Below, piece after piece: positions 3,912 through 64,000 of a DNA stretch of 64,000 nucleotides; within the stretch, counting starts at the first letter, position 1; each line of letters begins with the position of its first letter. A model generated the notes under the pieces. It saw only the letters and a list, made by a program, of their open reading frames with translations. It was not told where the DNA came from and did not search any database. Made by a program: the position numbers and the translations under genes. Source of the DNA: Tubulanus polymorphus (taxonomy: Eukaryota > Animalia > Nemertea); assembly GCF_964204645.1 (NCBI RefSeq), contig NC_134029.1, positions 13,542,850 through 13,606,849 on the forward strand, given 5' to 3'.

Positions 3912-5284
3912 TAACAAGGCAATTCGATACTACGTATTTATGTCCCCCGCGATAGCAACTAGGGAATGAATGACCCCTGAAGTCACTGATCTTTGGAATA
4001 GAAAAATGATGAGTGAATCCAGGGATAACCATACTATGAAATATCATTTTCCTGTTATGAATGGTTATTTAAGAATGAGTTGGGATGGGCACATCCTCTC
4101 CCTAGGGGTAATCATGCGACGTAACATCATTATATTGCTATCAACAGTTCTTTCTGAATCACATTCACGACACAGGGTTTTACATCAATGACCTGAAGTG
4201 ACCTTGACCATTGATCCTTGGAGCCCAGAATCAATAGGGCACATCCTCTCCATAAGGTAATCATAATACGTAATATCATGGTCCTGCTATCAACGGTTCT
4301 TCTTGAATGACGTTCACAAGGTTTCACATGAATGACTTGTAGTGACCCTGACCTTTGGTCCTTGGACCCCAAAATCAATAGGGCACATCATCTCCCTAGG
4401 GGTAATGATACTACGTAATATCATGGTCCTGCTATCGACGGTTCTTCTTGAATCACGTTCACAAGGTTTTAAATGAATGACCTGTAGTGACCTTGACCTT
4501 TGATCCTTGGACCCCAGAATTAATAGGGCACATCCTCTCCCTAGGGGTAATCATGCGATGTAACATCATTATATTGCTATCAACAGTTCTTTCTGAATCA
4601 CATTCACGACACAGGGTTTTACATCAATGACCTGAAGTGACCTTGACCTTTGATCCTTGGAGCCCAGAATCAATAGGGCACATCCTTTCCCTAGGGGTAA
4701 TCATACTACGTAATATCATGGTCCTGCTATCAACGGTTCTTCTTGAATGACGTTCACAAGGTTTCACATAAATGACCTGTAGTGACCTTGACCTTTGATC
4801 CGTGGACCCCAAAATCAATAGGGCACATCCTCTCCCTAGGGGTAATCATACTACGTAATAACATCGTCCTGCTATAGACGGTTCTTTTTGAATCACGTTC
4901 ACAAGGTTTTACATGAATGACCTGTAGTGACCTTGACCTTTGATCCTTGGACCCCACAATCAATAGGGCACATCCTTTCCCTAGGGGTAATCATACTACG
5001 TAATATCATGGTCCTGCTATCAACGGTTCTTCTTGAATGACGTTCACAAGGTTTTACATGAATGACCAATAGTGACGTTGACCTTTGGTCCTTGGACCCC
5101 AAAATCAATAGGGCTCATCCTCTCCCTAGGGGTAATTATACTGTGTTATGTCATAGTCCTGCAATCTACGGTTCTTCTTGAATCGCGTTCACAAGCTCAT
5201 GCGGACGGACGGCCAGACGGACGGACGGACGGAGGTGGATACCAAGTCCCCAGCTCGCGGCCTACGTCGCGCGGGGGACAATAA
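3912..5284 (+). mobile_element. Non-autonomous Helentron-type (HINE/pearl-like) element with internal satellite
   Basis: 5' AACAAG start; subterminal IR TGTCCCCCGCG (3941) / CGCGGGGGACA (5270-5280); GACG/GGAC microsatellite and GC stem near the 3' end; central tandem array. Confidence 0.7.
4085..5195. repeat. Tandem repeat, ~145-150 bp unit, ~7.5 copies
   Basis: Recurrent GGGCACATCCTCTCCCTAGGGGTAATCAT and TGACCTTGACCTTTGATCC at ~4087, 4237, 4381, 4525, 4676, 4821, 4966, 5111. Confidence 0.95.
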
Positions 5285-5375
5285 GCTTCGAATAATTGGA
5301 AAATGACGTTTTCAGGCCAGAGGACAAGAGGACGACACATCACTCATCACCACAAGTAATTTTCCCCCCTGATAA

Positions 5376-7086: not shown

Positions 7087-7410
7087 TTAATTTTTAATAG
7101 TAGTAGTTTCAGAATTATTAACAACACAAATTTTATTTGATTTTTTATACCAACTACATCCAATCAAAATGAATAAAATTACAAATCCAGTTGTAAAACA
7201 TAAATACTTATCAACTATTCTATTATTAGAAGGAGTAGAAATAACAATATTTTCACCATTATTATTAACATTTTCATTATTTATTTTTTCTTTGCATGCT
7301 TTTTTGAATTCTTTTGATTTAATTCCTAATTGCCGAAACCATTCAATTTGTTTTTGTGTTCTCGGTTTTTTCTTCGCAGTTAATTCCTTCAATTCTTCCA
7401 CTTCGCTCAT
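7087..7410 (-). CDS. Basic N-terminal, single-TM hypothetical viral protein
   Basis: KKKPRTQKQIEW..LGIKS plus hydrophobic segment; homolog of 54450-54818. Confidence 0.65.
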   Translation of the reverse strand: MSEVEELKELTAKKKPRTQKQIEWFRQLGIKSKEFKKACKEKINNENVNNNGENIVISTPSNNRIVDKYLCFTTGFVILFILIGCSWYKKSNKICVVNNSETTTIKN

Positions 7411-7955
7411 TTATTATAGAAAAAGAGAAATTTTTACTTTCAATATTTGAAAATGTTATCACTTTAGTTGATAATAATGTCATAAATCCACCTAATTGAA
7501 ATGATAAATATCCAATCCATTTATTTAATTCAGTCATAACTAAATAATCATTTTTTAAATCGGAATATAATCTATTTTCATCTTCAATTGGTAGCATATA
7601 ATTACATAATTTACTATAACCATTTATACTACATTTTCTGATATCGCATCATTAATTCTAGCTATTCTCGCAGTTTCATAAATCTTAAATAATTTCGTCT
7701 GAATTCATTGTATCTAATTCATCATAAGTTAAATTTTTACTAATGAAACTTTTACATTTTCCGGATGCTATTGTTATTTCTAAGTGATGTTTGCAATAAA
7801 GATAATATTCATAATTATTATTTGTAGTAATATCATTTAAAGCACCATTATTATCTGGTGTTAATTTTGTTTCTGTTAATTTAGCTAAATCATCCAAAGT
7901 TTTTTCGATTGGAACATCACTATTTTTAGATTTTATTTTCTTTTCACCTCCAATT
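7403..7955 (-). pseudogene. Conserved hypothetical viral protein, frameshifted
   Basis: YEYYLYCKHHLE and LYSDLKNDYLVMTEL; homolog of 53849-54457. Confidence 0.75.
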
Positions 7956-7960
7956 TTTAT

Positions 7961-8859
7961 AACAAAACAAGAGCCCCAAGGGGCACTATGGCCAGCCTGT
8001 CAGATTTTCATAAAATGGCAACTGATGATGCATTCTATGGGTAAAATATGCCAAAATACACTCCCAGCTCAGAGTCAATATCTAATAATTTACACCATAC
8101 AATCGTAGAATACAAAATTAGCACAGACAGCGACTGGATCTGGCAGGAAAAAATACCTCAGATAAATCTTTTCCCTTGGTCTTATTGATTTTAATGCGGA
8201 ATAAAATTGAATTTTCAGAAATTTGCTCAATAAAACAAAATTGAATTGGATTTGATGTTTTTATTCGTTCAATAAAGTAAAATTGAATTGGATTTGACAT
8301 TTTTGTGCAGAATAAAATTTGATTGAATTTGTAGTTTGAGCACTTGGCTAATTTGCATATCAAGGTCATCTATCCGATTTGAAAAAAAGCAATTTTTCCC
8401 GGACTTTGTACAATGGTCAATGATATTTTCTGTAGTGCTAATAAAGATATTCCTCCCAAAAACCAAATTAACTAAAAGCTTTCACAGAAATCGATCTTGA
8501 AATACAATTTTAGATCTTAAGATAAAACCCGGAAGTAAAACGGTAGACGATACCGCGGGTTCACGTGAACACCTGCTGATTTCTAAGCCAATCATAGAGG
8601 AGTCTTTGCTTTCTGATTGGCTTTTCAAAACCAATATTTTTGCGATCAGATATTCGCGAAAAAGCCCATATAAATTTCAACGAGGCCCTCTTTCAAAATT
8701 CAGCTACGTAGAGTTTGGAAAATTGATAATGCTTTAATGAATGATCTGTATGAATATATGCCCAGTTGCACATTCAAAGAGCCTTTGCTCTGGAAACCAT
8801 GTCATTTAAATTCGCTCTATTTGTATAGTAATAGGCTCAGCCTACGGCTGGCCTAAAAA
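7961..8859 (+). mobile_element. HINE/Helentron-like non-autonomous insertion within copy B
   Basis: Starts AACAAAACAAGAG, ends with stem-loop AGGCTCAGCCTACGGCTGGCCT followed by an A-run; higher GC than the viral flanks. Confidence 0.55.
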
Positions 8860-8924
8860 TTACTTGTGTTGTTGCAACTAGAATTCAACTAGAATTTAAC
8901 TTAAAATAAACGAGATTAACAAGC

Positions 8925-9536
8925 TAGTTGAAATTAAATAAATTCATATTTAACTGGGAGTTGTAATCGAAATAGTAATTTTGATCTTTTATTATTTTTC
9001 AATTTATCCATATATTCAATATCTAAATCATGTGAAATAATATCATTTTCCTCAAGTGCATTTTTCATTGATTTCCTATCTTTATTGTAGAATAATACTA
9101 AAAATCTAATGTTTTCTCTAAAATCTTTAACAATTGAATTGTATTTTTGATTTAAAACCCACGTTATATTTCCAAAATGTCTACCAGAAAAAGCTAAATA
9201 ACATAATTCACTTTCTCTAACTTTTGAATCATGTAAATTAGCACAATCATGTATAATGAATAATGTTTTTGTTCCTTTATAAATATCAATTGCTATTTTA
9301 ATACAATTATCTAAATTTTCTTTAACTGTTTTAGGATCTAATACAATAAATTTATAATATTTCTATCATAAGTTTGATTAAATTCATACGTTGGGCAGAA
9401 TAATACTATATTATCAAAATAGTTTTTATAAACAGTTTCTAATAAATTGAATATTTAATAAGTTTTTCCACAATTTGTTACACCAGAAATTAACATATTA
9501 TGAGGTTCAAATATCAATAATTCCTTATTTATTCAT
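8925..9536 (-). pseudogene. Genome-packaging ATPase (A32/FtsK-HerA-like)
   Basis: Walker A GVTNCGKT, degenerate Walker B, LAFSGRHFG; homolog of 55908-56519. Confidence 0.88.
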
Positions 9537-16968: not shown

Positions 16969-17379
16969 AGAAGCATTTTCTTAGATTATGAGTAAAAATC
17001 TTAGATTATTATTATCTTAAACTTAGATTATAAATAAATCCTCGCAAGCTCGAATTTATTTTAATTTTTTACTCACTCGCCCCTTCAACCTTTGATATGA
17101 ACCCTATTATCCCTATTACTCTTAAAATATTCATGTTTTAAAAGTGAGAGTAAAATTCTAACAGAATAATCTAGAAAATAAGATCAAATAGAGATTTCGA
17201 ATGATAAAATATAATTCTTAACATAAAAAGTAACGAGTAGTAACGAGTAAAATAATTCACATTTAAAACATTAAATATTTATATTTATATGCGTTAGATT
17301 CTTATTTTTAAACATAAAAAGTGTGAGTAATTAACGATTGAAATAATTCATATTTAAAACAGCGAATATTTATTTTAAA

Positions 17380-39554: not shown

Positions 39555-40442
39555 ATCTTTATCAGAGACGAGATATTTGGGGGTCTTAGGATTATGGGTC
39601 TTAGGTTTAGTATATTATATATAGGTGTCACTAAACCTAAGACCCATTAACCTAAGACCCGACTCTAAATCATTATTTGTGTACTTTAGACTATTCAAAA
39701 TGGTTCTAATATATAGATATTAGTTAAAATGATCCATCGATGGCCCATTTAAATTTGGTTTATTTATCAGAGACGTATTTGAGGGTCTTAGGTTTATAGG
39801 TCTTAGGTTTAGTATATTATATATAGGTGTCACTAAACCTAAGACCCATAAACCTAAGACCCGACTCTAAATCATTATTTGTGTACGTTAGACTATTCAA
39901 AATGGTTCTAATATATAGATATTTGTTAAAATGTTCCATCGATGGCCTATTTAAATTTGGTTCATTTATCAGAGACGAGATATTTGGGGGTCTTAGGTTT
40001 ATGGGTCTTAGGTTTAGTATATTATATATAGGTGTCACTAAACCTAAGACCCATAAACCTAAGACCCGACTCTAAATCATTATTTGTGTACTTTAGACTA
40101 TTCAAAATGGTTCTAATATATAGATATTAGTTAATGATCCATCGATGGCCTATTTAAATTTGGGTCATTTATCAGAGACGAGATATTTGGGGGTCTTAGG
40201 TTTATGGGTCTTAGGTTTAGTATATTATATATAGGTGTCACTAAACCTAAGACCCATAAACATAAGACCTGGCCCTAATTCGTTATTTGTGTACTTTGGA
40301 CGAGATATTTGGGGGTCTTAGGTTTATGGGTCTTAGGTTTAGTATATCATATATAAGTGTCACTAAACCTAAGACCCCCTAAACATAAGACCTAACGGGT
40401 CTTAGGTCTTAGGTTTAGGGGGTCTTAGGTTTAGTGACACCC
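39555..40442. repeat. Tandem array (~203-bp unit) of hairpin-containing transposon-end sequence
   Basis: ATCAGAGACG recurs at 39561, 39766, 39968, 40171; each unit has ~31-bp inverted arms GGGTCTTAGGTTTATGGGTCTTAGGTTTAGT / ACTAAACCTAAGACCCATAAACCTAAGACCC; array ends TAGTGACACCCG. Confidence 0.92.
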
Positions 40443-42322: not shown

Positions 42323-42718
42323 TTATATGATAAAAAAATTAAAACTTAAAATATTATATTCCTCCTATTACAATTCCTACACAAGTTATAGCTAATTTAG
42401 TATTTTCATGAGATTTATTATCACTATTAGTTTGAATTATTTCATGATGAATATTATCAGTTTTTATATCTTCTGATTTATTGTAATCTTTTATTTTAGA
42501 ATCATTATTTAATTTAATATTCTTTGTTTTAGTTTCTGTTGATTAAATATCTTTTTTTAATTTTTCACTTTCCATTAATTTTGGAGCAGTGATAATTTTT
42601 TATTTACATCATATAATCCAAATGAATTATTTATTGTTGCAGTTTTAATCAAATTATTATAACCAATTATATTTCCCATTTTTAATATTAAATCATCAGA
42701 AATAATCAACAAATTAGT

Positions 42719-45682
42719 ACCTAAATGTTCTGGGCAATAAGGTAAGTTTCTTGTTTTAAACTTTATACTTTCAGCAGGATATTCCAAATCAACTACAAAG
42801 AAATAACCAATTGGAGCACCATCTTCTAAACTCATTATTGCGCTTTCCCAATTAGTTTTATCATCATTTTCAACTTTTGTTAATACAAAATTTTTATATG
42901 GTTGAGGTTGCATCATTGCCCAACCATATAAATTATTAGCATCGATGTACAATAATTTGTATTCATCATTTGCTTTAAAATATCTATCTCCCATAACACC
43001 ACTAATTCCACCTCTAATTGATTTTTCAAATAATAAAACCATGTCTGGTTCTTTTAATAAATCTAATTCTACATTTGTATATTTTAAACCACATTGCCAG
43101 GTTAAACCAGGACTTGAATAACAATAACAAGGATCAACATTAAAATGATTTAAATTAACTTCTCTAAATTTTTCAAATATGTCAACCAATATCCTACTAA
43201 TTCACCATGATTTTTTTTCTTAAAAAATGATTCCAAATATTTAATGTTTTATCAAAAACTCCATCTTTCACGTACTCCTCTTTTAATTGATCATAAAATT
43301 GTTCTTTTAATAATTGTGTGTTTTATAAAATGAATAAGGAATTGCACCTTTAAAGCTCAATAATTTAAAAACTTGTTCATTTGGATACTAATGCCGAGTT
43401 ATTACAAAATCATTATTAACTAAACTTTTTGCTAAATTATCTAATGAACGTCTTAAAAATCTATAAGAATCTAAAAATCCCAAACAACCAAATTGAAATG
43501 AAATGTAATTTTCAGATGTCTTAGCTAATAGTTTAAAATCATATTTTCTTACATCTAAATCATTTATAGCATTATATTCTTCTATTTCTTGATTAATTGC
43601 GCCTAATTTTCCTGATAATTGTTTTATAAATAGATGAGCATCATATCATAAATTATTAAATAATATTGGTACGAAATTTACTTTTTTAACTTTGTAAATT
43701 ACAATCTTCATGAGCAGCTCCACGATAATTTGAATTTAATGATCGTGATCTTTAACTTTTTTATCAAATGAATAAAAACGTTTTGCAGAGTAACAACGAT
43801 GAGTTGCATAATTAAAATCAATTTCATCTTCTTTGGTCATAATTATTCTTTTATTTTTATTTAATAATTGTGCAAAATCACTTTCTAATTCAATTATTTT
43901 ATTACAAAATTTATTTACTACATCTTCACCTCTAAAAGAAATATATTGACTTTCATATAATTTAGGATAATTTGATTTTATATATATTCCATAAGCAGCA
44001 GCTCTTTGAAGAACTTTTCTAATTGTATTTATGATTGGTGGGTCTTGTATTATGTCTTCATTTAATTCATTTCCGTTGTCCATTGATTTTAATAATTGCT
44101 TTTTGTTATATATTTCTTTTCTATCTTGATCAGTTAATTCTTTATTCAACGATTCAAAATCCCCATAAATTACAAATGACACTATATTTTCAAATTTATG
44201 ATTAGTAAATTTCAATTTATAATGTTTTTCTGTTGGCATTATTAATTTGCAAAAATCTTTATTATCACATAATTCTTTATGTTTTAATGATGCATTTTTC
44301 AGTTCTAAATTTAGACAAACATTTTCTACATACATATATTTTATGACTGTTAAAATCACTTTCTGTTCTAAAGAATAAATCTATTTGTTTTAACCAAATA
44401 TAAGGTTCATTTTCATCTTCTTCGTAATATAATAAATCTATAACATTTTCATCATCATAATATTCTGTTAAATATAAAGCTTCTAATGTATAATCTTTAA
44501 TAGTTTCACCTGTTGTCTCTGGTAATTGGATTAATTCGAATACATTTATTTTTAAATAATTAACTTTTTCTATTTTAGGAATCATTTTTATAGTTACTGG
44601 GTATTGATCAATTTTATATAATGTTTCATATTTCCGGTAGTCTGTTATTCTATAAACATGTTCTTCTGTTGGATGTAAACAACTAACAATTGACCATAGA
44701 AAACATACATATCTTCATTTTAAACATTTATAACTGCTTTTGTTGTAAATGGTAATTTAATATAAGATGATGCTTGAATATCCTTTTCTGTTGTAGTTTG
44801 AATCATTTTTAAACATTGCATTACTTTTTGATGCTTTATTCCTATTTGTATTATAAATATTTAAATCTAAAAATATAATTTCATTCAATGTTAAACCAGA
44901 ACCCTCAAAATATCTTTCTTCAATATGACGTTTAAATTCATTAAATATTTTTCTAACTTCTTTTTTATTTGTGTTTTTGAAATTATCTCTTCAGAATGTG
45001 TTTGAATATTGTACTCCATTTTTTCTTCCGATTTTATAAAACATACTTTTCCAGATATACTAATTTTTGGATATTCAATATTTGTAACGAAGTCCATTAT
45101 TTTTTCCATTATTTCCATATATTTGCTATAATCTTCTATTGTTGATCCTTTTGATCCTTTAAAATTGATCCCAATTGATCCTTTAAAAAATCTAAATGTA
45201 ATAGCTGCAGGACCAATTTTACTACGTAATGTTTCTAAAATTTCAATTGTATCTTTTATTTCTAGCGAATCGATATAATTTCTAACATTTTCCAATTAAG
45301 GTGTATTTGAAATATATTTATTTTTTGAAGCCGGTTTTTTTACTTGCTGAGGTTTATCATCAAAATATTCTGTTCCTAAAATATTTTTATTTAAATTTTG
45401 TTTGTGTTTTTGAGATTCGAGATGTCTTTTATAATTCTTTTTTACTATAAATTCATTACAAACTTCACATTCTATTTCGTATTTTTTTCATATCATTTAA
45501 TCGTTGTTTTCCTTCATTTGAATTTTCTGGTGTCTCAAAATCTATAACATTTTTTTTTAATGATTTGCAGTTTTTTCATGTCGAGATTTTTTAGATTTAT
45601 CGATGAATTTTTTACAATATGTACAATAATATTGATTTTTATTAACATCATTTTTTTCTCTCTGGAACTCACTGTCTCCCAT
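42719..45682 (-). pseudogene. Protein-primed DNA polymerase B with N-terminal Zn fingers and an endonuclease-VII-like insert
   Basis: YGDFES (ExoI), KVKDHDH..YRGAAHEDCN, YDAHLFIK, FLDSYRFL, SSPGLTW, SIRGGIS, YIDANNLYGWAM, VDLEYP; many frameshifts; C-terminus deleted. Confidence 0.93.
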
Positions 45683-45776
45683 TTATCAGGGGGAAAAATT
45701 ACTTGTGGTGATGAGTGATGTGCCGACCTCTCGACCTCTGGCCTGAAAACGCTATATTCTAATTACTTTTAATATG

Positions 45777-48700
45777 AGAATTAGAAAAACGACCTAATAC
45801 AGGGGATAACATTTTAGCTAGCGATTTCGAGAGAAAATACGAGGGTCATCCACAATTAGAAATAATGGGACGTAAGGGTACACCAGATTTATGAATTTTA
45901 GGTAAACCATAAGCGTATGGAAGGGAGGCGAGACGACAATAAAAACGGCGAATGTAAGCTTTAAAATCACTATGTTTTTAAGCTACCTCGTCGCTATAGT
46001 TTAGCCTTACGTGAACTCAGATCTTTGAAATACCTTCGTATCTCTAAAGCGGACAAAGGCGGCAAGATTGTCATCATGGATGTTGTGGACTATGATAAAA
46101 CTAGAATGACGCAAAGCCTCGAATGCCCCCGGCCTGAAATCCACCGCCACGTGAAGTTACAGGGTTTATGGTAAATGCGTTAGAAATATCATGGCCACAA
46201 TTATTTCTATAAGAATGATATTAGAGAACATGTGTACAAAGTGTAAATAATTCATCCACAGTTGCAGCCTCTAGGCTGTTTTCCCCTGATGGCCATAATT
46301 TTAATTGGTCAACAATTGCAGCCTCTAGTAATAATTTGAATCGAATCGACCCGATTTTAAATAGGGTTCTGCACAAGGGATATCCTACTTGTGTACCAAG
46401 TTTGAAGTTAATCGGTCAACAATTCCTGCCTCTAGGCTATTAATGTAGTTTTTCGTGTTGGCCCCCTGGTGGGCATTATTCAGATCAAATTGACACAATT
46501 TTAGATTGGATTCGGGGCGACGTGATACCCTACTTGTGTACCAAGTTTGATCGGTCACCAATTGCAGCCTCTAGGCTGTGAACATCGTTGTTCATGTTCG
46601 CACCCTGGTGGCCATAATTTGAATCGAATCAACCCAATTTTATAAGGCTTTTGGCCCAAGTGTTATCCTACTTTTGTACCAAATTTAAAATGAGTGGGTC
46701 AGCAATTGCGGCTTTTAGCCTGTTAACGTTGTTTTTCATGTCGGCCCTCTGGTTGCCAGAATTTGAATCGAATCAACCCAATTTTAAATAGGGTTCTGGC
46801 CCAAGTGTTATCCTACTTGTGTACTAGGTTTGAAATGAATCGGCCGACAATTGCGGCCTCTAGACTGCTAACGTTGTTTTTCATGCCAGCCCCCTGGTGG
46901 CCAAAATTTGAATCGAATCAACCCAATTTCAAATAGGGTTCTCGCCCAAGTGATATACTACTCGTGTACCAAGTTTGAAAACAATCGGTCAACAATTGCG
47001 GCCTCTAGGCAGTTAACGTCACTTTCAGCGGCGGCGACATATTCAGACAGAGGTAAATCTATATGCCCCCTCTCAACTTAAGTTGAGCCAGGGGCATAAA
47101 AAAACGGTCAACAATTAAGGCCTCTAGACTGTTAACATTATTTTTTATGTCGGCCCCCTAGTGGCCATTATTTGGATCGAATCGCCCCAATTTTAGATAG
47201 GGTTCTGGCCCAGGTAATATCCAACTTGTGTTCCAAGTTTGAAATGAATTGATCACCAATTGCGGCCTCTAGGCTGTTAATGTCGCTATTCATGTCAGCC
47301 CCCTGGTGGCCATAATTTGAATCGAATCGACCTAATCTTACATAGGGTTCTGGCCCAAGTGATATCCTGCTTCTGTACCAAATTTGAAGACAATAGGTAA
47401 AAAATTGCAGCCTCTAGGCTGTTAACGTCGTTTTTCATGTCGGCCCCCTGGTGGCCATAATTTAAATCGAATCGACCCATTTCTAAAGATAGTTCTACCC
47501 CAAGTGATATCCTACTTGTGTACCAAGTTATAAAACAATCGGTCAACAATTGCGGCCTCTAGGCTGTTAACGTCGTTTTTCATGTCGCCCCCTGGTGGCC
47601 ATAATTTAAATCGAATAGACCCAATTTTTTTTAGGGTTCTGGCCCAAGTCATATCCTACTTGTGTACCAAGTTTTAAAACAATCGGTCATCAATTGCGGC
47701 CTCTAGGCTGTTAACGTCGTTTTTCATGTCTGCCCCCTGGTGGCCATAATTTAAATCGAATCGAACCAATTTTAAATAGGGTTCTGGCCCAAGTGGTATC
47801 CTACTTATGAACCAAATTTGAAAACAATCGGTCAACAATTACGGCCTCTAGACTGTTAACGCCACTTGCGCAGCGGCGTATACAGACAGGGGTAAATCTA
47901 TATGCGTCCTCAAAACTAAGCCGGGGCATAAAAATGTACACTATTCTTTCCGATCCTTTAGTTTATAAGTATTGGAATGGTTATACATACATTTATAACA
48001 ACTATAGAATACTGCTCACTAGAGCAGTAACTTGTTCAGCAGTAACGTGTATTCTACTGTATTAAACTGCATTACATCTGTACGTCATGCTCAGTACACA
48101 TCATGTGATATTTCACTATATATATTGATATGTAAAGGGTAGATGAGAGTCACTTTGAGAAACAACTACTTTAATGTCAACACCGAGTCGTACTGCTAGT
48201 CACTTCTTTCTGGAGAAAAGGTATTGACAATAAGCCTCTTAAAAAGATCCTTTTAAGTGTTGGCAAAGTAATTTTAATCATAACCTTGGACTTTTAGCTG
48301 AAAAACAGTGATTTTAAAGCTTATATTCGCCGTTTTTATTGTCGTCTCCCCTCCCTTCCATACGCTTATTGTGTACCTAAAATTCATAAATCTGGTGTAC
48401 CCTTACGCCCCATTATTTCTAATTGTGGATGACCCTCGTATTTTCTCTCGAAATCGCTAGCTAAAATGTTATCCTCTGTATTAGGTCATTTTTCTAACTC
48501 TCAGATTAAACATAACTCTAGACAGATTACGGTCCATCATTCCTAACTGTGACAAATTCATCTCATTTGATGTTGTTTCACTGTTTACTAATATCCCTTT
48601 AGAGGCTACTTTTGATTTCATTCGACGCAAACTTCCGGGCCTCCGACTCGAATTTCCCATTTCTGTTGAATGTCTCATTGATATACCTGAACTGTGTTCC

Positions 48701-49900
48701 AAAAATATGTATTTCAGGGTATTTCTTTCAACAGATTTTTGGATTTGGTATGGGGAATCCCCTCTTTCCTATCTTAGCTAACTTATTTTTGGAACATGTT
48801 GAAACTGAAATTTTGCCTTTGTATACAGATATCCCTCCCAAAGCTTGGTTTCATTATGTTGACCATGTTCTTTGCTTGGTTACTGAAAAATTTAACCTTC
48901 CCTTATTTTCAGAGTTCTTAAATTCACGTGACCGTAGCCTTAAGTGCACATTGGGAATCCAATAATGTGATTCCTTTCCTGGATGTTCTTATACACAATT
49001 GTTTTGATCGTCCCCGTTTATCGGAAACCCACCCACTCTAATTCATATTTGCATTTCTTTTCCTTCGCTAGTTTTAATATCAAGTTGTCTGTAGCCCAAG
49101 GGTTGTTTCTACGGGCGCTTAGAATTTGTGACCCTGAATTTAATGAATCTGAAATTGTATATATGTACGCAATTGTCTTAACAAATTAGCTTATCCAGAT
49201 TGCGTCTTAGACCTTGCGCTTCGTAAAGCTAAAAGATTCCTTAAACATAATTTTATCCGTGTTGACTTTAACTCTATTCAACATAAGTCTCGCATTGTTG
49301 TCCCTTATGTCCCGTGTTTAGACAAATTGAAACCCACTCTCAATGCACTTAACACTGAGATCATTCAAGTATAATAACAAAATCTCTAGTCATTTATACA
49401 AAAATAATACTCTGTCCAATACCCATGCCGGTGTTTATAAAATCCCTTGCTTAAATTGTGATAAATTTCATATAGGTGAAACTGTTCGCTCCCTCAGCAT
49501 TCGTATTAAAGAGCATAACAAAGATATAATTAATCAAAAACCCCAAAGTGCTGTGGCTACCCATGTTTGGGATACCTATGGTCATCAATTTGATTTTAAT
49601 AATTCTTGTATAATTTTTCCGTCTCACAGTATTACCCGACGTCACATAGTTGAGTTGGCTTTAATAAATTCCCATTCATAATTCCTGTGTCAATGGTAAC
49701 CTCAGTTTCTCCCCCCATAATAAACTTTTGTCCCTATACATTTCCTCTCTGGTTAATATTACCTAGTTTTCATGTGGAATAGTGTGTGTCGTTCTTGCTT
49801 GTATATATACTGTGAAATGTCATAATTTTAGTCACTCTCGAGAATTGCTTTTAGGATAAAACCGAAAATTCGAGGTTTTAATAAATTCTTTAATGTTTTG
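45777..49900 (+). mobile_element. Penelope-like retroelement (RT + GIY-YIG), 5' truncated with inverted segment, interrupted by a HINE
   Basis: KADKGGKIVIM..Y (46050s), PKIHKSGVPLRPIIS, SFDVVSLFTNIP, GFGMGNPL, YVDH, FLDVL, VYRKPTH, GVYKIPCLNCDKFHIGET..RIKEH. Confidence 0.9.
46098..47932 (+). mobile_element. HINE/Helentron-like element with ~140-bp satellite and two 3' ends
   Basis: Starts AAACTAGAATG..ATGCCCCC; repeats GCCTCTAGGCTGTTAAC..CCCTGGTGGCCATAATTT; CAGACAG..GGTAAATCTATATG..GGGGCATAAAAA at ~47045-47102 and ~47883-47934; the Penelope frame resumes after it. Confidence 0.78.
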
Positions 49901-51827: not shown

Positions 51828-52097
51828 GAGTAATAGGGGTAATGGGCTTTCAAGCCAAAGGTCGAAAGGTCGAGTGAGTAAAAATGAAAAATACGAAAAT
51901 AATAACAATTTCAATTTGAATTAGTAGCGAAACTCATAAAAAATGAAAAATAATTCTCGCACGCTCGAATCTATTTTTCATTTTATATGAGTTTCACTCC
52001 TAATTCAAATAGAAATTGTTATTATTTTCGTATTTTTCATTTTTACTCACTCGCCCTTTCAACCTTAAACCTGAAAGCCCATTACCCCTATTACTCT
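51828..52097. repeat. ~270-bp imperfect palindrome at the apparent element end
   Basis: GAGTAATAGGGGTAATGGGCTTTCA ... TGAAAGCCCATTACCCCTATTACTC; ~125-bp arms with scattered mismatches; loop CTCGCACGCTCG. Confidence 0.92.
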
Positions 52098-52374
52098 TAA
52101 AATATTCATATATATAAACATAATTTACATGAATAACATATAAAAGTAATTAGGAAATGGCGTTTTCAGATCAGAGGTCGGAGGTCGAGCTCGTATAGAT
52201 AGATAAATAGATATATTTTAAACATATTTCAATATTTATATTTGTATGAGTTAGATTTTTAAACATTAAAAGTGTGAGTGAAGTGTGAGTGAAATAGTTC
52301 ATATACATACACATGAATAACATATAAATGAATAACTTCTAATATCAATTTAGTAAAAAAAATATGTACAATAA

Positions 52375-53589
52375 ATGGAATCAGAACAACCACAAACTAT
52401 CAATATTACAAATAACACTGGTGTTATAAATATATACTACAAGAAGTATTCTAAATGTGAATTAGATAAATTAGCTATAACAGAATTTAGTAAGCGTAAG
52501 ATTAGCAAAGATGGTTTTCAATATTGCTGTAAAACTTGTTTTAAACTATATACTAAACAATATCGAGAAGATAATAGAGAACATTATAATGATTATATGA
52601 CAGAAATATATAAAACAGATCTTAATTTTACATTGAAACAATGTTTAAGATCTAGATTAACACAATTATTCAACAAAGAAACACATTCAGAAACACTATC
52701 TAATTTATTGGGTTGTTCAGATGAATTTCTCAAATCATGGATAATATATCTATGTCAAACTGCCTATATGTAATTGTATTAGCTCTTTGCATCTGTCGCA
52801 GGTTATATTCAGTTGAATAGGGTGTACCTCATTTGAATATTGATCGAATGTGCTATTTCAGTAGAAAAGGATTAATCATAAAAGAACAAAGGAACATCTG
52901 TTGCTTAGAGAGACAGTGCCCGGGTATATTGAGCGCAGTCGCATTACAAAATCCGAACTGAACAGACGGAATATATAGAACGTATAAGATTTTTCTCTAG
53001 AAACACAATTAGGAGTTTATAGTTATAAAGGTAAGTACTGTTTTTGTTGTTATTAAGACGCCGGGAAACGTTAAACAAGTTTAAGTGTATTAATCTATAT
53101 TTGAAAACTACAACTTCAAGTTAGTTTTATTCTACGCTAGATATTTATCTTTTAGGTAACAAAATGCTAAGCGTAACAAGAATACCATTGCTATTTAAAC
53201 CAAGAAAGTGAAGATAGGAGGATGTGGAATCAGAAATTATGGATATTTCAACTCATGAAACTGTAGCAGTTTAGCCGTATTGTATAGGCTTTCAATGCAT
53301 TACGTTTACCGGAATTTCAATTGCGTCATTCAGCTATTGTTAATGTCACACACAGTGACATGTTCTATTATACTTTATTGATTCCTGCATTCACGCATAC
53401 CTTACCGGGCCTCTGAGAATCGGCTTGGAATGTGGAAATCGATAATGATCGTAGAATAAAATATATGTGTGTTTATGAAATAGTGATTCCACCAGTCGTT
53501 TCTTTGAATTTATTTTCAGTTTGAGGATTTATTATCGAGAATCCGAAATGACTTATCTGGACAGTTATAATTACTGCTCCTATAGATAA
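52375..53589 (+). pseudogene. CxxC Zn-ribbon / HNH-endonuclease-like protein interrupted by an insertion (~52750-53537)
   Basis: EFSKRKISKDGFQYCCKTC..LRSRL..LLGCSDEFLKSWI; tail ESEMTY resumes at ~53539. Confidence 0.55.
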
Positions 53590-54818: not shown

Positions 54819-54824
54819 AATAAG

Positions 54825-55915
54825 ATGAAAAAAGAACAATATTTAAGAGAGTTATATTATAACCCAGAAAGTGAAGTATCATATTCTAGCGTTTCAGAAT
54901 TATGGGATAAAATTAAATCTGATAAAGAAAATGGTAATATAAAATATAGTGAATTAAAATCATGGTTACAAAATCAACCAACATATCAAATCCACAAGAA
55001 AATGGATAAAACTTATTTAACAAAAAGGTTATGGTTTCATATATTGATCAACAATGGCAAGCAGATTTAATTGACGTGAAGAACTTAGAAGAATACAACA
55101 AAGGATATTTCTGGATATTAAATGTTATAGATATATTCAGTAGATACGCATGGTCAATTCCAATCAAAAATAAAACTGGTATAGAAGTGACAAATGCTTT
55201 TAAATCAATATTTAAAGAAGCTATTCCAGATAAGATACAATTTGATGAAGGTAAAGAATTCTATAATAAACATTTTTAAAAACTATTATCTGATAACGAT
55301 GTAGATTATTTTTCAACACATTCAGATAAAAAAGCATCTATTATAGAAAGATTTAATAAAACATTGAAAACTAGAATGTGGAAATATTTTACTGCTAATG
55401 AAACATATAACTATATCGATGTGTTAGATGATTTGGTGAAAGGTTATAATAATTCTAAACATAGTTCTATAAATATGAAACCTATACAAGCTAGAAAAGA
55501 AGATAATTCAGAAATAGTTTGGAATAATTTATATGGCGCGTTTGTTACACATGATTTCGGTGAACCTAAATTTAAAATTGGACAACACGTAAGAATATCT
55601 AAATATAGAAAAACATTTTATAAAGGTTATACCCCTAATTTTACTGAAGAAATATTCAAGATTAAAAAGATAATATTAACTAAACCTTTTGTTTATAAAT
55701 TAGAAGATATAAAAGATGAAGAAATATTAGGTTATTTCTATGAACAAGAATTATCACTTGTACCAAATCCAGATGAAATAGAATACAAAATAGAAAAAGT
55801 ATTGAAAACAAAAACTCTCAAAGGAAAAAAGTGTTCTTTGGTGAAATATAAAGGATACGATGATAAATTTAATGAATGGATTTTATCTAGTAAATTTAAA
55901 AGAATAAATGAATAA
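54825..55915 (+). pseudogene. Polinton retroviral-like integrase (rve) with C-terminal chromodomain, two frameshifts
   Basis: QWQADLID, VIDIFSRYAW, IQFDEGKEF, KASIIERFNKTLK, YNNSKHSSINMKP, KGYTPNFTEEIF, VKYKGYDDKFNEW. Confidence 0.94.
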
Positions 55916-56519
55916 AGATTTATTTATATTTGAACCGCATAATATGTTAATAACTGGGGTAACAAACTGTGGTAAAACACATTTCATATTAGATTTGTTA
56001 GAAACTATTCATAAGAATCATTTTGATAATATAATATCATTCTGTCCTACTTATGAAATGAATAAAACATATAATAGAGATATAGTTAAGATAAAAAAGT
56101 TTATTATATTAGATCCTAAAACAGTAAAAGAAAATTTAGATAATTGTATTAAAATAGCAATTGATATTTATAAAGGATCAAATACATTATTCATTATAGA
56201 TGATTACGCTAATTTACATGATTCAAAAGTGAGAGAAAGTGAGTTATGTTATCTAGCTTTCTCTGGGAGACATTTCGGGATAACAACATGGGTTTTAAAT
56301 CAAAAATATAATTAAATTGTTAAAGACTTTAGGGAGAATATAAGATTTCTGGTTTTATTCTACAATAAAGATAGAAAATCTATGCAACAATCATTGGAAG
56401 AAAATCAAATTATACCTACTGAATTACATGATGAATATATGAATAAATTAAAGAATAATAAAGGTTCAAAATTATTACTGAGGCTTCAATTTCCCTATGA
56501 ATATAAATTTATAAAATAA
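55908..56519 (+). pseudogene. Packaging ATPase (A32-like), premature stop at 56313
   Basis: GVTNCGKT, FIIDD, SGRHFGIT; the frame continues after TAA (IVKDFRENI). Confidence 0.92.
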
Positions 56520-56547: not shown

Positions 56548-57252
56548 TTAATCACTTTCATTATAAGACTCTATTTCGTCGTCAAACTCGAACAATTGTT
56601 GGTAATTATGTTTATCTGTAACTATATTTTCATTATCATCTTTCTCTTTCTTGGTGTATAACCTTAATATTACATTTACATCGATTGGTGCTAATATTTT
56701 TTTAGCACCAGATAAATCTAATTCATCTTTACTGAGTTCAGGCTCCTCTGATAAAAATTCCATAAATGAATCTTTATATAATGTTTTACCATCTACGTTT
56801 TTATTTGAAACAAACTTTGTAACATATTTAAATGGATGTTCTATAAATTCTTTTAAACCGACATGTTTTATAACACTAGTAATATGTGAAGCTCTATTCA
56901 TATGATTATTCCAATTTGATGGGGCGTTTGAAAATTCACCATTACAATAACCACAATAATTTTTGTTATCCTTATATTTTAATATTATTTCATTTTTGGG
57001 TGTAGAAGGCATAACATTATTTGATGTAGAAGGTAAAACATTATTACTATCTTCTATTTTAGTTTCAATATTATCTTCTATTTTATATTCAATATCATTC
57101 TTATCTTCTATTTTAGGTTCAATATTATTTTCTTTTTTTGTTTCGATATTCTTATCTATTTTACTTATTCTATATTTAAATTGATTAAAGTATTCTCCAA
57201 AATACTTACTGTATTCATCATAAGGTAATATATAATATATATCTGGTATCAT
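56548..57252 (-). CDS. Hypothetical viral protein with CxxC..H Zn-finger (5' end deleted)
   Basis: YCGYCNGEF..WNNHMNRASH; homolog of 19335-20138. Confidence 0.65.
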   Translation of the reverse strand: MIPDIYYILPYDEYSKYFGEYFNQFKYRISKIDKNIETKKENNIEPKIEDKNDIEYKIEDNIETKIEDSNNVLPSTSNNVMPSTPKNEIILKYKDNKNYCGYCNGEFSNAPSNWNNHMNRASHITSVIKHVGLKEFIEHPFKYVTKFVSNKNVDGKTLYKDSFMEFLSEEPELSKDELDLSGAKKILAPIDVNVILRLYTKKEKDDNENIVTDKHNYQQLFEFDDEIESYNESD

Positions 57253-57253
57253 T

Positions 57254-58286
57254 TTAATCAATTTGATTAATATTACAATTTTCAAATGATTTTACGTTTT
57301 CATTCATAAAATGTTTTCTAATTGATGGCCATTGATCTATCATTCTCATTCCTTGACGAAATATTTTATTTGCTATTCCTTCGATAGTTATATCTACTTT
57401 TGATATTTCAGGATTATAATAATTATCAACTTTTATTGCACCATTAGTATATGTTGCAATGGTAAAAAATGTTAATATACCTTTAATAGATCTTCTTGGG
57501 GAGTTAATATTCTCATTAATTATTTCACCATTTGCATTAATAGTTACAGTTTTAAATTGTTCAATATAATCATATAATAATGAAAATCCTTGGTTGTATT
57601 GAGTTTGAATTATGCTAGCATTATTTTCATCAGTTACTGTATCATATTCCAAACATATATTCGATATTTCATAACCCATATCTTTATTAACGCTAGACAA
57701 TACAATTTCATTAACAGGAGCAAATGTTATTTCGAATATAATATCTTCTTGAATTGCATATTTATACAAAGGCGCATTATTATTTATCAATTCAAAATCT
57801 AATGGAATTTTATATTTGCTTCCATAAATCTTTTTTATCAAATTATCTACAGCATTAGTTACTACTGCATTATTGGCTTCAGATCTTAATCTATTTTGGT
57901 TTTCTGATTGGATGCCTTGAAATATCATATTATTTCTATTTTCTTTTGTTAACCATAAATCTTTATAATACATAAATAAATTATAATTATCTAATGAGAA
58001 AACTGTTTCTGGTCCAATCTTTACAGCTAATTGTTTAATCAAATATCTTCCAACATTATCAACAACATAATTGTTATCATGACCAGTTACTTTTATATCA
58101 GCTGATAAATAAATACTATTTGGGACATAAAAAGTATTTTGTGGGAGTATTTCGAGGGATTCTAACATATAAAGTTTCATCAGGATTAATATTAGAAGGA
58201 TTATGAGTAATTATATGATGAGATCTTTCTGCTTTAATAGCATTAGATATTCTAGAATTCTTAGGACTTATATAACTCCCACTCAT
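57254..58286 (-). pseudogene. Major capsid protein lacking the C-terminal ~70 codons
   Basis: Highly similar to 18056-19302 up to NINQID. Confidence 0.78.
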
Positions 58287-62834: not shown

Positions 62835-63414
62835 TACTCTTTACATCTTATAATTAATTCATAAATTATAGGAAAGTTACTTAAATCAATTAAATAACCA
62901 TCATGATTTCTTATTTCTAATTTAGAAGTGTGAAAAAAGGCATTATATTTGAATTACCATCTACGTTTCCTGTAACAATATCTGGTGCAATTCCTAGCAA
63001 TTTAGCTAATGGTTTTCTCACCATAAATGAAGGTTTACTTTCATCATGTAACTTTATTTTAATTTTATTTGTGCTATCACTTTTTATAAATCTAATTAAA
63101 AATTTATCTTTACTTCTAATTTTCAACCGTGCTCTTCTATTAATTTCTTGAGCTAGTGTTTCTAAATTATATAATCCTGGTTTTAAAATGAGATGAAACC
63201 ATTTATTTATATTTCTAAAATGAATTAAAAAAATATTATGATCAATAGTTTTACTCGATACATCATAAAAAGAATTACATAAACTTACATTTACTAATTT
63301 TAAATCAACACAATTCTTAAATTCTCTATCTAATTCTACTAGTTAATTATGAGATTTATAATTTGTAAGTTTTCTAGAATCAACATGTATTCTATATTCT
63401 TTTAATTCTACCAT
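62835..63414 (-). pseudogene. Minor capsid (penton-like) protein with internal deletion
   Basis: Homolog of 15076-15835 lacking the YIYCNLI segment. Confidence 0.65.
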
Positions 63415-63787: not shown

Positions 63788-63835
63788 TTATAATACATAT
63801 TTGTATTAAAATTGATTAACACGTTAGAATCCTTT

Positions 63836-64000
63836 TCATAATCTCATTTTCTTTTGTTTCTTCTCTTTTAAATTTTAAGTTTTCATCTAAATTGCAACCA
63901 TATGCAACTGTATGAATTCCATCATCTAAAATATATCTTTTATCATCAAATGGGTTTAGACTTATCTTTTCTATTCCTTCAATAAACATTTCGTGATCTT
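63836..64000 (-). CDS. PolB C-terminal end (continues beyond the window)
   Basis: DHEMFIEGIEKISLNPFDDKRYILDDGIHTVAYG. Confidence 0.9.

What the first reader, a model, noticed from the sequence alone, without database searches (positions are those of the whole stretch)
51828..52097. Long imperfect hairpin at the end of a Polinton-like virus
Seen: a 270-bp palindrome beginning AGTAATAG, with mismatched arms, at the left boundary of copy D. A deleted version (loop CTCGCAAGCTCG plus right arm) with the same downstream CTTAAAATATTCAT and AAAAGTGTGAGT sequence starts copy C at 17030-17330, so it belongs to the element rather than being a one-off insertion. Established: Polintons usually end in simple AG..CT TIRs and use protein priming, whereas mismatched hairpins typify pox- and parvovirus telomeres. 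Inference: a hairpin-ended or self-priming variant, or an ancestrally captured palindromic MITE.
Basis: partly seen in the sequence, partly recalled or inferred. Interest (0 to 1): 0.7.

Follow-up and report, generated by a model that had tools for sequence, protein, structure and literature searches.

The report
Hairpin-ended Polinton virus family
A virus-like jumping element buried in many copies in what is likely an animal genome begins with a 267-base fold-back hairpin made from its own end sequence, which may let it prime its own DNA copying the way parvoviruses do, although that function is untested.

Summary
The hairpin is real (51829-52095, 267 nt, z -25) and is the true end of an endogenous Polinton-type element. 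In an independent Illumina run, 1,778 reads leave the window at 51829 into unlike flanks. It is not a captured foreign MITE: its outer 46 nt are the element's own AGT terminal motif, which recurs at three other element ends. Hairpin depth (about 1,060-1,130) matches the depth of one fixed inner junction (1,023). Longer and shorter forms coexist with plain, hairpin-less ends. Two of ten arm mismatches are private to this copy, so pox-like fixed mismatches are not shown; flip/flop, TSD and both-end status were untestable. Best reading: a fold-back duplication of the terminal repeat, inherited by a successful subfamily, which likely self-primes second-strand synthesis beside protein priming (unproven). 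A 2026 preprint already reports shorter terminal palindromes and the same model in protist virophages/PLVs, mostly without pPolB, and this scan noted similar ends on other DNA. New here: a long version in a pPolB-encoding, probably animal, family.

The parts
51829..52095 (.). 267-nt terminal palindrome (hairpin) at the integrase-side end of copy D
   Evidence: terminus fixed by 1,778 reads with unlike flanks before 51829, agreement 0.34
51829..51874 (+). 46-nt terminal motif starting AGT, shared with hairpin-less ends of the family
   Evidence: 1,154 reads leave the hairpin behind 51874 into one other sequence, agreement 0.85; homology
51957..51966 (+). 10-nt non-palindromic loop on a short inner stem
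   Evidence: 82 reads change strand at this loop; same loop in copy C
52096..52144 (+). constant junction between hairpin and element interior
   Evidence: first 14 nt identical in copy C; read depth 1,023 at 52110-52125
52145..52189 (+). second, inner copy of the terminal motif
   Evidence: 0 of 5,000 shuffles reach the score
52215..52304 (+). degenerate subterminal tandem-repeat unit, shared with copy C (17261-17353)
   Evidence: reads going back 74-88 nt here
17032..17134 (+). remnant hairpin end (loop, shortened inner arm, junction) before inverted copy C
   Evidence: the 62-nt shorter arm is also seen in 22 reads
45724..45767 (-). terminal-motif homologue about 80 nt upstream of the polymerase gene of copy E (polymerase-side end; outermost part lost to an insertion)
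5290..5335 (+). terminal-motif homologue of another polymerase-side end, internally deleted
52375..52773 (+). first ORF of copy D, weakly related to an HNH-type ORF of a relative
   Evidence: (E 6e-6 to L012 ORF)
54819..55915 (+). rve integrase with chromodomain, broken
   Evidence: (rve E 5e-8)
55908..56519 (+). A32-like packaging ATPase, interrupted by a stop
   Evidence: (E 6e-9)
57227..58283 (-). double jelly-roll major capsid protein, broken
   Evidence: fold of a 77%-identical relative matches PBCV-1, Sputnik and mavirus capsids
63819..63998 (-). C-terminal end of the family B polymerase of copy D; the gene runs out of the window
   Evidence: 78% to P0073
42632..45643 (-). broken family B polymerase of copy E; intact relatives carry an Endonuclease VII-like domain

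Best explanation
The hairpin is the real, inherited end of many copies of an endogenous Polinton-type element, made of the element's own terminal sequence copied back on itself, and it likely acts as a fold-back primer for second-strand DNA synthesis alongside ordinary protein priming. Shown: the terminus at 51829, the self-derived arms, the fixed inner junction, the many copies, several arm lengths, and coexistence with plain ends. Inferred, origin: a nascent or displaced strand folded at the short inner stem-loop and was extended back to the tip. Inferred, use: when the polymerase starts at the far end and displaces the old strand, that strand's 3' end folds on the 125-nt arm into a primer-template junction, so its complement can be made without pairing with the distant end. 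Inferred and weakest: the closed end is reopened by a nick at the inner copy of the terminal motif, with the integrase or the polymerase's nuclease domain as candidates. My odds: structure and self-origin 0.9; active priming role 0.45.
For: Terminus: 1,778 reads loose before 51829, agreement 0.34, and 753 at the mirror position. Self-origin: arm tip homologous to 3 other end motifs in the window; reads place the loop and inner arm inside a roughly 73-nt subterminal repeat unit (joints 52296-51972, 78 reads; 52048-52268, 100 reads). Inherited as a unit: inner-arm depth 2,120-2,261, that is about 1,060-1,130 hairpins, against 1,023 for the inner junction. Other copies fold: 82 reads change strand at this loop and 68 at a second, shorter hairpin centred near 51995-52001, where 451 reads diverge with agreement 0.9. 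Pairing is better in the family than in copy D: 1,112 of 1,132 reads at 51913 and 2,697 of 2,755 at 52067 carry the pairing base. Fold-back priming at short inverted repeats is an established route to long palindromes (PMC7999016, passages). The same priming model has been proposed for protist virophage/PLV palindromes (bioRxiv 10.64898/2026.07.28.741278, section 7).
Against: Nothing here tests function. The family keeps the AGT tip and a pPolB gene, and plain ends are about as common as hairpin ends (1,154 reads), so the hairpin is not required. No Rep/HUH nickase or dedicated resolvase was found among the ORFs scanned. The inner arms of copies C and D share letters that differ from D's outer arm at two positions, which argues against constant arm-to-arm recopying. 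Depth bookkeeping is rough: partial alignments, and 80% versus 85% thresholds. Strand-change reads can partly be library artefacts. Only one raw-read run (12% read) was informative, and the tables showed only part of their rows (15 of 76 joints, 6 of 234 loose ends, 40 of 91 variant sites).
Confidence: 0.5

Rival explanations
1. Neutral passenger: a one-off fold-back accident at the terminal repeat was fixed in a subfamily that then amplified; replication stays fully protein-primed from the outer AGT tip and the hairpin does nothing.
For: Plain ends are as common. The pPolB gene and AGT tip are retained. C and D share inner-arm-specific letters, as expected if the arms drift apart after a single origin. 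The preprint itself offers accidental annealing as an alternative.
Against: At least two hairpin sizes, each with paired arms and a related loop, and abundance comparable to the integrase gene (about 1,050 against 615), although long palindromes are normally unstable (PMC7999016).
Confidence: 0.33
2. Mini-Polinton/MITE: the 267 nt are a non-autonomous derivative (left tip, loop, right tip) moved on its own by the Polinton integrase, one copy of which landed at an element end.
For: It begins AGT and ends ACT like a complete miniature element. Terminal-motif reads with unlike flanks (about 2,250 depth units) exceed twice the integrase depth (about 1,230).
Against: No 4-8 bp TSD around it. The number of hairpins matches the number of fixed inner junctions, which leaves little room for free copies. 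The excess termini are explained by plain ends.
Confidence: 0.07
3. Structural signal rather than primer: the palindrome extrudes as a cruciform or stem-loop that integrase, a nuclease or the packaging machinery recognises.
For: The loop sequence is kept between copies C and D and in reads. Relatives' polymerases carry an Endonuclease VII-like domain. Mismatched poxvirus hairpins serve virion maturation (PMC8956199, title and abstract start only).
Against: Plain ends integrate without it. Nuclease insertions in Polinton polymerases are known with no reported link to hairpins (10.1101/2023.08.22.554363, passages).
Confidence: 0.08
4. Assembly or library artefact.
For: Palindromes are error-prone in sequencing, and no assembly was available for a cross-check.
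Against: The arms are imperfect at sites that are polymorphic in the family, a diverged remnant exists at 17032-17134, and a run listed under another study shows the same loop crossing.
Confidence: 0.02

Closest known systems
Terminal palindromes of endogenous virophages (subtypes 1, 2, 5, 6) and PLV subtype 4 in Halocafeteria seosinensis (bioRxiv 10.64898/2026.07.28.741278; passages and section 7 read)
   Same: Palindrome at the tip of the terminal repeat of an integrated, rve-type small DNA virus, with hairpin priming proposed and untested.
   Different: There 52 nt (subtype 5), in a protist, preferentially with non-pPolB replicases and in all complete copies of a subtype. Here 267 nt, in a pPolB-encoding family of a probable animal, with several arm lengths and coexisting plain ends.
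Polintons/Mavericks, including adintoviruses (PMC8097293, PMC8502044, 10.1101/2023.08.22.554363; passages read)
   Same: Family B polymerase, rve integrase with chromodomain, A32-like ATPase, double jelly-roll capsid, AG-starting terminus, shared motif at both ends.
   Different: The tip is AGTAAT rather than the (AGT)2 or (AG)3 motifs described for vertebrates. No maturation protease was found. The word 'hairpin' did not occur in PMC8097293 or the nematode preprint; PMC8502044 was not searched for it.
Parvovirus terminal hairpins (rolling-hairpin replication; established knowledge, recalled)
   Same: A terminal palindrome of 100-400 nt whose 3' end would fold into a primer.
   Different: No Rep/NS1 nickase found; the element is an integrating dsDNA virus type; flip/flop not shown.
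Poxvirus flip/flop hairpin telomeres (PMC8956199, listing and abstract start only)
   Same: AT-rich inner arm with mismatches and a loop.
   Different: Covalent closure and fixed mismatches are not shown. Two mismatches are private decay, and this end must be open to integrate.

Membership tests
Polinton/Maverick | protein-primed family B polymerase | tested here: met
   Broken gene at 42632-45643 and C-terminus at 63819-63998 match 1,300-aa polymerases; close hits carry PF03175. Protein priming itself is assumed from the family, not tested.
Polinton/Maverick | rve integrase | tested here: met
   PF00665 E 5e-8 plus chromodomain
Polinton/Maverick | packaging ATPase | tested here: met
   Pox_A32 E 6e-9
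Polinton/Maverick | double jelly-roll major capsid protein | tested here: met
   Model of relative P0002 (pLDDT 61.5) matches PBCV-1 at E 4e-12, Sputnik and mavirus
Polinton/Maverick | single jelly-roll minor capsid protein | tested here: inconclusive
   Candidate at 62840-63399 (homologue of L011:565-1329); no Pfam hit; not folded
Polinton/Maverick (adintovirus sense) | adenain-like maturation protease | tested here: inconclusive
   No protease family hit in the window, L011 or L012 ORFs scanned. A divergent protease could be missed, and copy D runs out of the window. I therefore call it Polinton-type, not a filed adintovirus.
Polinton/Maverick | terminal inverted repeats with AG..CT ends | tested here: met
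   AGT terminus at 51829; homologous motif in inverted orientation at the polymerase side, 45724-45767. Full TIR length not determined.
Polinton/Maverick | 5-8 bp target site duplication | not testable with these tools
   No copy with both ends lies in the window and no genome is held
Free MITE | TSD and unrelated flanks on both sides | tested here: not met
   No 4-8 bp repeat; one side fixed in C, D and reads
Parvovirus/poxvirus-type hairpin end | flip and flop isomers | not testable with these tools
   150-nt reads and summary tables cannot link loop orientation to the interior
Parvovirus/poxvirus-type hairpin end | conserved mismatches between arms | tested here: inconclusive
   2 of 10 private (98% of reads pair), 5 of 10 mixed at 30-68%, 3 of 10 not shown
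Parvovirus/poxvirus-type hairpin end | encoded nickase or resolvase for end resolution | tested here: inconclusive
   No Rep/HUH or resolvase hit; an Endonuclease VII-like domain lies inside relatives' polymerases (best E 7e-6), role unknown

The most novel reading that the evidence does not exclude
An animal Polinton lineage replicates by a hybrid scheme: protein priming at one tip and parvovirus-like fold-back priming at a 267-nt terminal hairpin, with the integrase or the polymerase's Endonuclease VII-like domain reopening the closed end, which gives flip/flop isomers among integrated copies.
Probability: 0.25. Interest if true: 0.8.

Novelty: new variant of a known kind. Interest (0 to 1): 0.5.

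Why it matters
How Polintons replicate is a model rather than a demonstrated pathway. A family with many integrated copies, some hairpin-ended and some plain-ended, is a natural experiment: loop orientation and arm divergence in long reads can show whether hairpin priming happened, with no bench work. If it did, hairpin priming would extend from protist elements that mostly lack pPolB to a pPolB-encoding family, linking protein-primed and rolling-hairpin replication. Practically, Polinton end-finders should allow for palindromic tips.

Tried and rejected
No whole genome was held, so copies, TSDs and both ends could not be collected. An 18-nt end-motif scan of viral contigs gave 10 loci; all 10 matched only over 20-38 nt and were dropped as chance. 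A loop-motif scan of prokaryote genomes found 0. Relatives in viral contigs: capsid 0 loci, integrase 0, polymerase 1 weak locus at 28%. Of 38 metagenome loci with related capsids, none showed more than short AT-rich matches to the hairpin or end motif, and the closest ones appear to stop before their ends, so conservation beyond this host is untested. Logan contigs X1-X3 were too fragmented to bridge the hairpin. The protein atlas did not answer. Copy C has no recognisable intact left arm. I did not use copy C's inversion as proof of a hairpin at the polymerase end, because the integrase-ATPase block is inverted between relatives L011 and L012 as well. Ten paper searches found no report of long terminal hairpins in animal Polintons. 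I saw listings for these, only the top rows of the larger ones, and the library lacks most subscription papers and Repbase. The 'hairpin' hits in 10.1101/2022.05.25.493380 are protein beta-hairpins. Supplements of the bioRxiv preprints are closed and may list palindrome lengths or pPolB-bearing subtypes that bear on the novelty claim.

Full report
Observation. The palindrome is real. The arms 51828-51952 and 51972-52096 pair at 115 of 125 positions. The strand folds at -108.4 kcal/mol against a shuffle mean of -20.2 (z -25.4; 0 of 200 shuffles as good). AGTAATAG starts at 51829 and its mirror ends at 52095, giving 267 nt with a 10-nt non-palindromic loop at 51957-51966. Its inner arm is about 60 nt shorter, consistent with a deletion between 14-nt direct repeats inside the arm, and the genes behind it are inverted relative to copy D.

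The element. Downstream lie an rve integrase with chromodomain and an A32-like ATPase, a capsid gene whose 77%-identical relative folds like the PBCV-1, Sputnik and mavirus capsids, and the end of a family B polymerase. Copy E holds most of that polymerase. Most of these genes are broken. Gene content matches metagenome relatives at 70-84% nucleotide identity for the longer matches. No protease was found among the ORFs scanned. I call it Polinton-type. An animal host is inferred from the surrounding repeats and from the few named homologues, and is not shown.

The arms are the element's own end. The first 48 nt of the arm align to a second motif 50 nt past the hairpin (52145-52189; 0 of 5,000 shuffles reach the score), to an inverted motif about 80 nt upstream of copy E's polymerase (45724-45767), and to 5290-5335. 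These, together with the arms themselves and copy C, are the six best-scoring places in the window. So the palindrome is two copies of the terminal motif plus subterminal sequence, back to back.

Read evidence. No genome is held. Five runs were listed; four were laid, and the one raw Illumina run (X5, about 12% read) was laid again on half of the hairpin so that both arms pile on one reference. (a) Terminus: 1,778 reads stop matching before 51829 with flank agreement 0.34. (b) Plain ends: 1,154 reads leave after 46 nt into one other sequence (agreement 0.85) that leads towards the second motif. (c) Hairpins in other copies: 82 reads change strand at the loop. Another 68 do so at a shorter hairpin, where 451 reads diverge with agreement 0.9. 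A further 64 reads skip about 60 nt of the inner arm, as copy C does. (d) Bookkeeping: inner-arm depth 2,120-2,261 implies about 1,060-1,130 hairpins; the fixed junction has depth 1,023; the integrase has about 615 at a stricter threshold. Almost every hairpin therefore has the same inner neighbour, which a free MITE would not. Single-copy depth is unknown; the lowest depth shown was 25-26 reads, suggesting at least about 40 hairpin ends and possibly many more. (e) Mismatches: at 51913 (1,112 of 1,132 reads) and 52067 (2,697 of 2,755) the family pairs and copy D has decayed. Five other mismatch sites are mixed (30-68%) and three were not displayed. (f) Origin: 78 and 100 reads place the loop and inner arm inside a roughly 73-nt subterminal repeat unit, so the short stem-loop appears to exist outside the long hairpin. 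Limits: one informative run, truncated tables (one search showed 15 of 76 joints, 6 of 234 loose ends and 40 of 91 variant sites), and 150-nt reads that cannot link the loop to the interior or the hairpin to genes beyond about 52330.

One end or both? Unresolved. Copy D has the hairpin on the integrase side. Copy C's orientation is simplest if it was on the polymerase side, but inversions are common in this family. Depths fit either one hairpin end plus one plain end per element, or two subfamilies.

Mechanism. Origin by fold-back at a short inverted repeat is an established route to long palindromes (PMC7999016, passages) and fits (f); this step is inferred. In strand-displacement replication (established for protein-primed viruses, recalled), the displaced strand's 3' end would meet a 125-nt complement and form a primer-template junction. 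That would replace end-to-end pairing for second-strand synthesis, but leaves a closed end needing a nick. The inner arm ends in a copy of the integration tip, so the integrase is a candidate. Relatives' polymerases carry an Endonuclease VII-like domain, another candidate, though nuclease insertions in Polinton polymerases are known with no reported hairpin link (10.1101/2023.08.22.554363, passages). Against a required role: plain ends are equally common, and inner arms of C and D share letters that differ from D's outer arm. I put the priming role at 0.45 and a neutral passenger at about 0.33.

Comparison and novelty. Vertebrate Mavericks have 46-1,447-bp TIRs, (AGT)2 or (AG)3 tips and 6-bp TSDs, and the word hairpin does not occur in that paper (PMC8097293, passages). 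A July 2026 preprint reports palindromes at TIR tips of endogenous virophages and one PLV subtype in a protist (52 nt in one subtype), mostly with non-pPolB replicases, and proposes the same priming model untested (10.64898/2026.07.28.741278, section 7 read). I also read passages of PMC11296320, PMC8502044 (plus section 3.1), PMC8363768, 10.64898/2026.10.13.758929 and 10.1101/2022.05.25.493380; none of those passages describes such an end in an animal Polinton. Kapitonov and Jurka 2006 was not read. Unchecked notes of this scan describe a 196-nt fold-back at a Maverick-type end and short hairpins inside Giardia Polinton ends in other genomes. The concept is therefore not new. What is new, as far as ten searches of this library reach, is a five-fold longer palindrome starting exactly at the tip, in a pPolB-encoding family, with length classes and plain ends side by side.

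Verdict. Observation confirmed; interpretation partly supported; new variant of a known kind; interest 0.5, because a long-read check of loop orientation would directly test an open model of Polinton replication.

Noticed in passing
window 39558-40436: Tandem array of a 202-bp unit, each with an internal hairpin of about 80 nt (z -9.6), directly abutting the broken capsid end of copy E. No similarity to the 51829 hairpin appeared; origin unexplained.
   Followed up: partly
window 45763-48515: Insertion bounded by 215-nt inverted repeats (94%) with TTAA at both outer edges; it interrupts copy E's end and contains a 145-bp array.
   Followed up: no
window 48485-49681 and about 46030-46100: Degraded reverse-transcriptase and GIY-YIG-like frames resembling a Penelope-like element (motifs recalled; Pfam gave no hit).
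   Followed up: partly
window 4087-5233 and 46331-47861: Two 145-bp tandem arrays, the first followed by a CGGA microsatellite, recalling Pearl/Helentron-type repeats of marine invertebrates (recalled, untested).
   Followed up: no
window 1-64000: At least five broken copies of one Polinton-type family in 64 kb, several rearranged or inverted: a local cluster.
   Followed up: partly
L011:7141-10343 versus L012:3853-7251: The integrase-ATPase block is in opposite orientation in two close relatives, and copy B shows a similar inversion at 7361-9532. L011 has an AT-rich imperfect palindrome at 9082-9359 and a deoxynucleoside kinase gene (E 2e-31).
   Followed up: partly
window 42560-42750: In copy E the polymerase is joined in frame to the tail of another viral gene by an internal deletion.
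   Followed up: no
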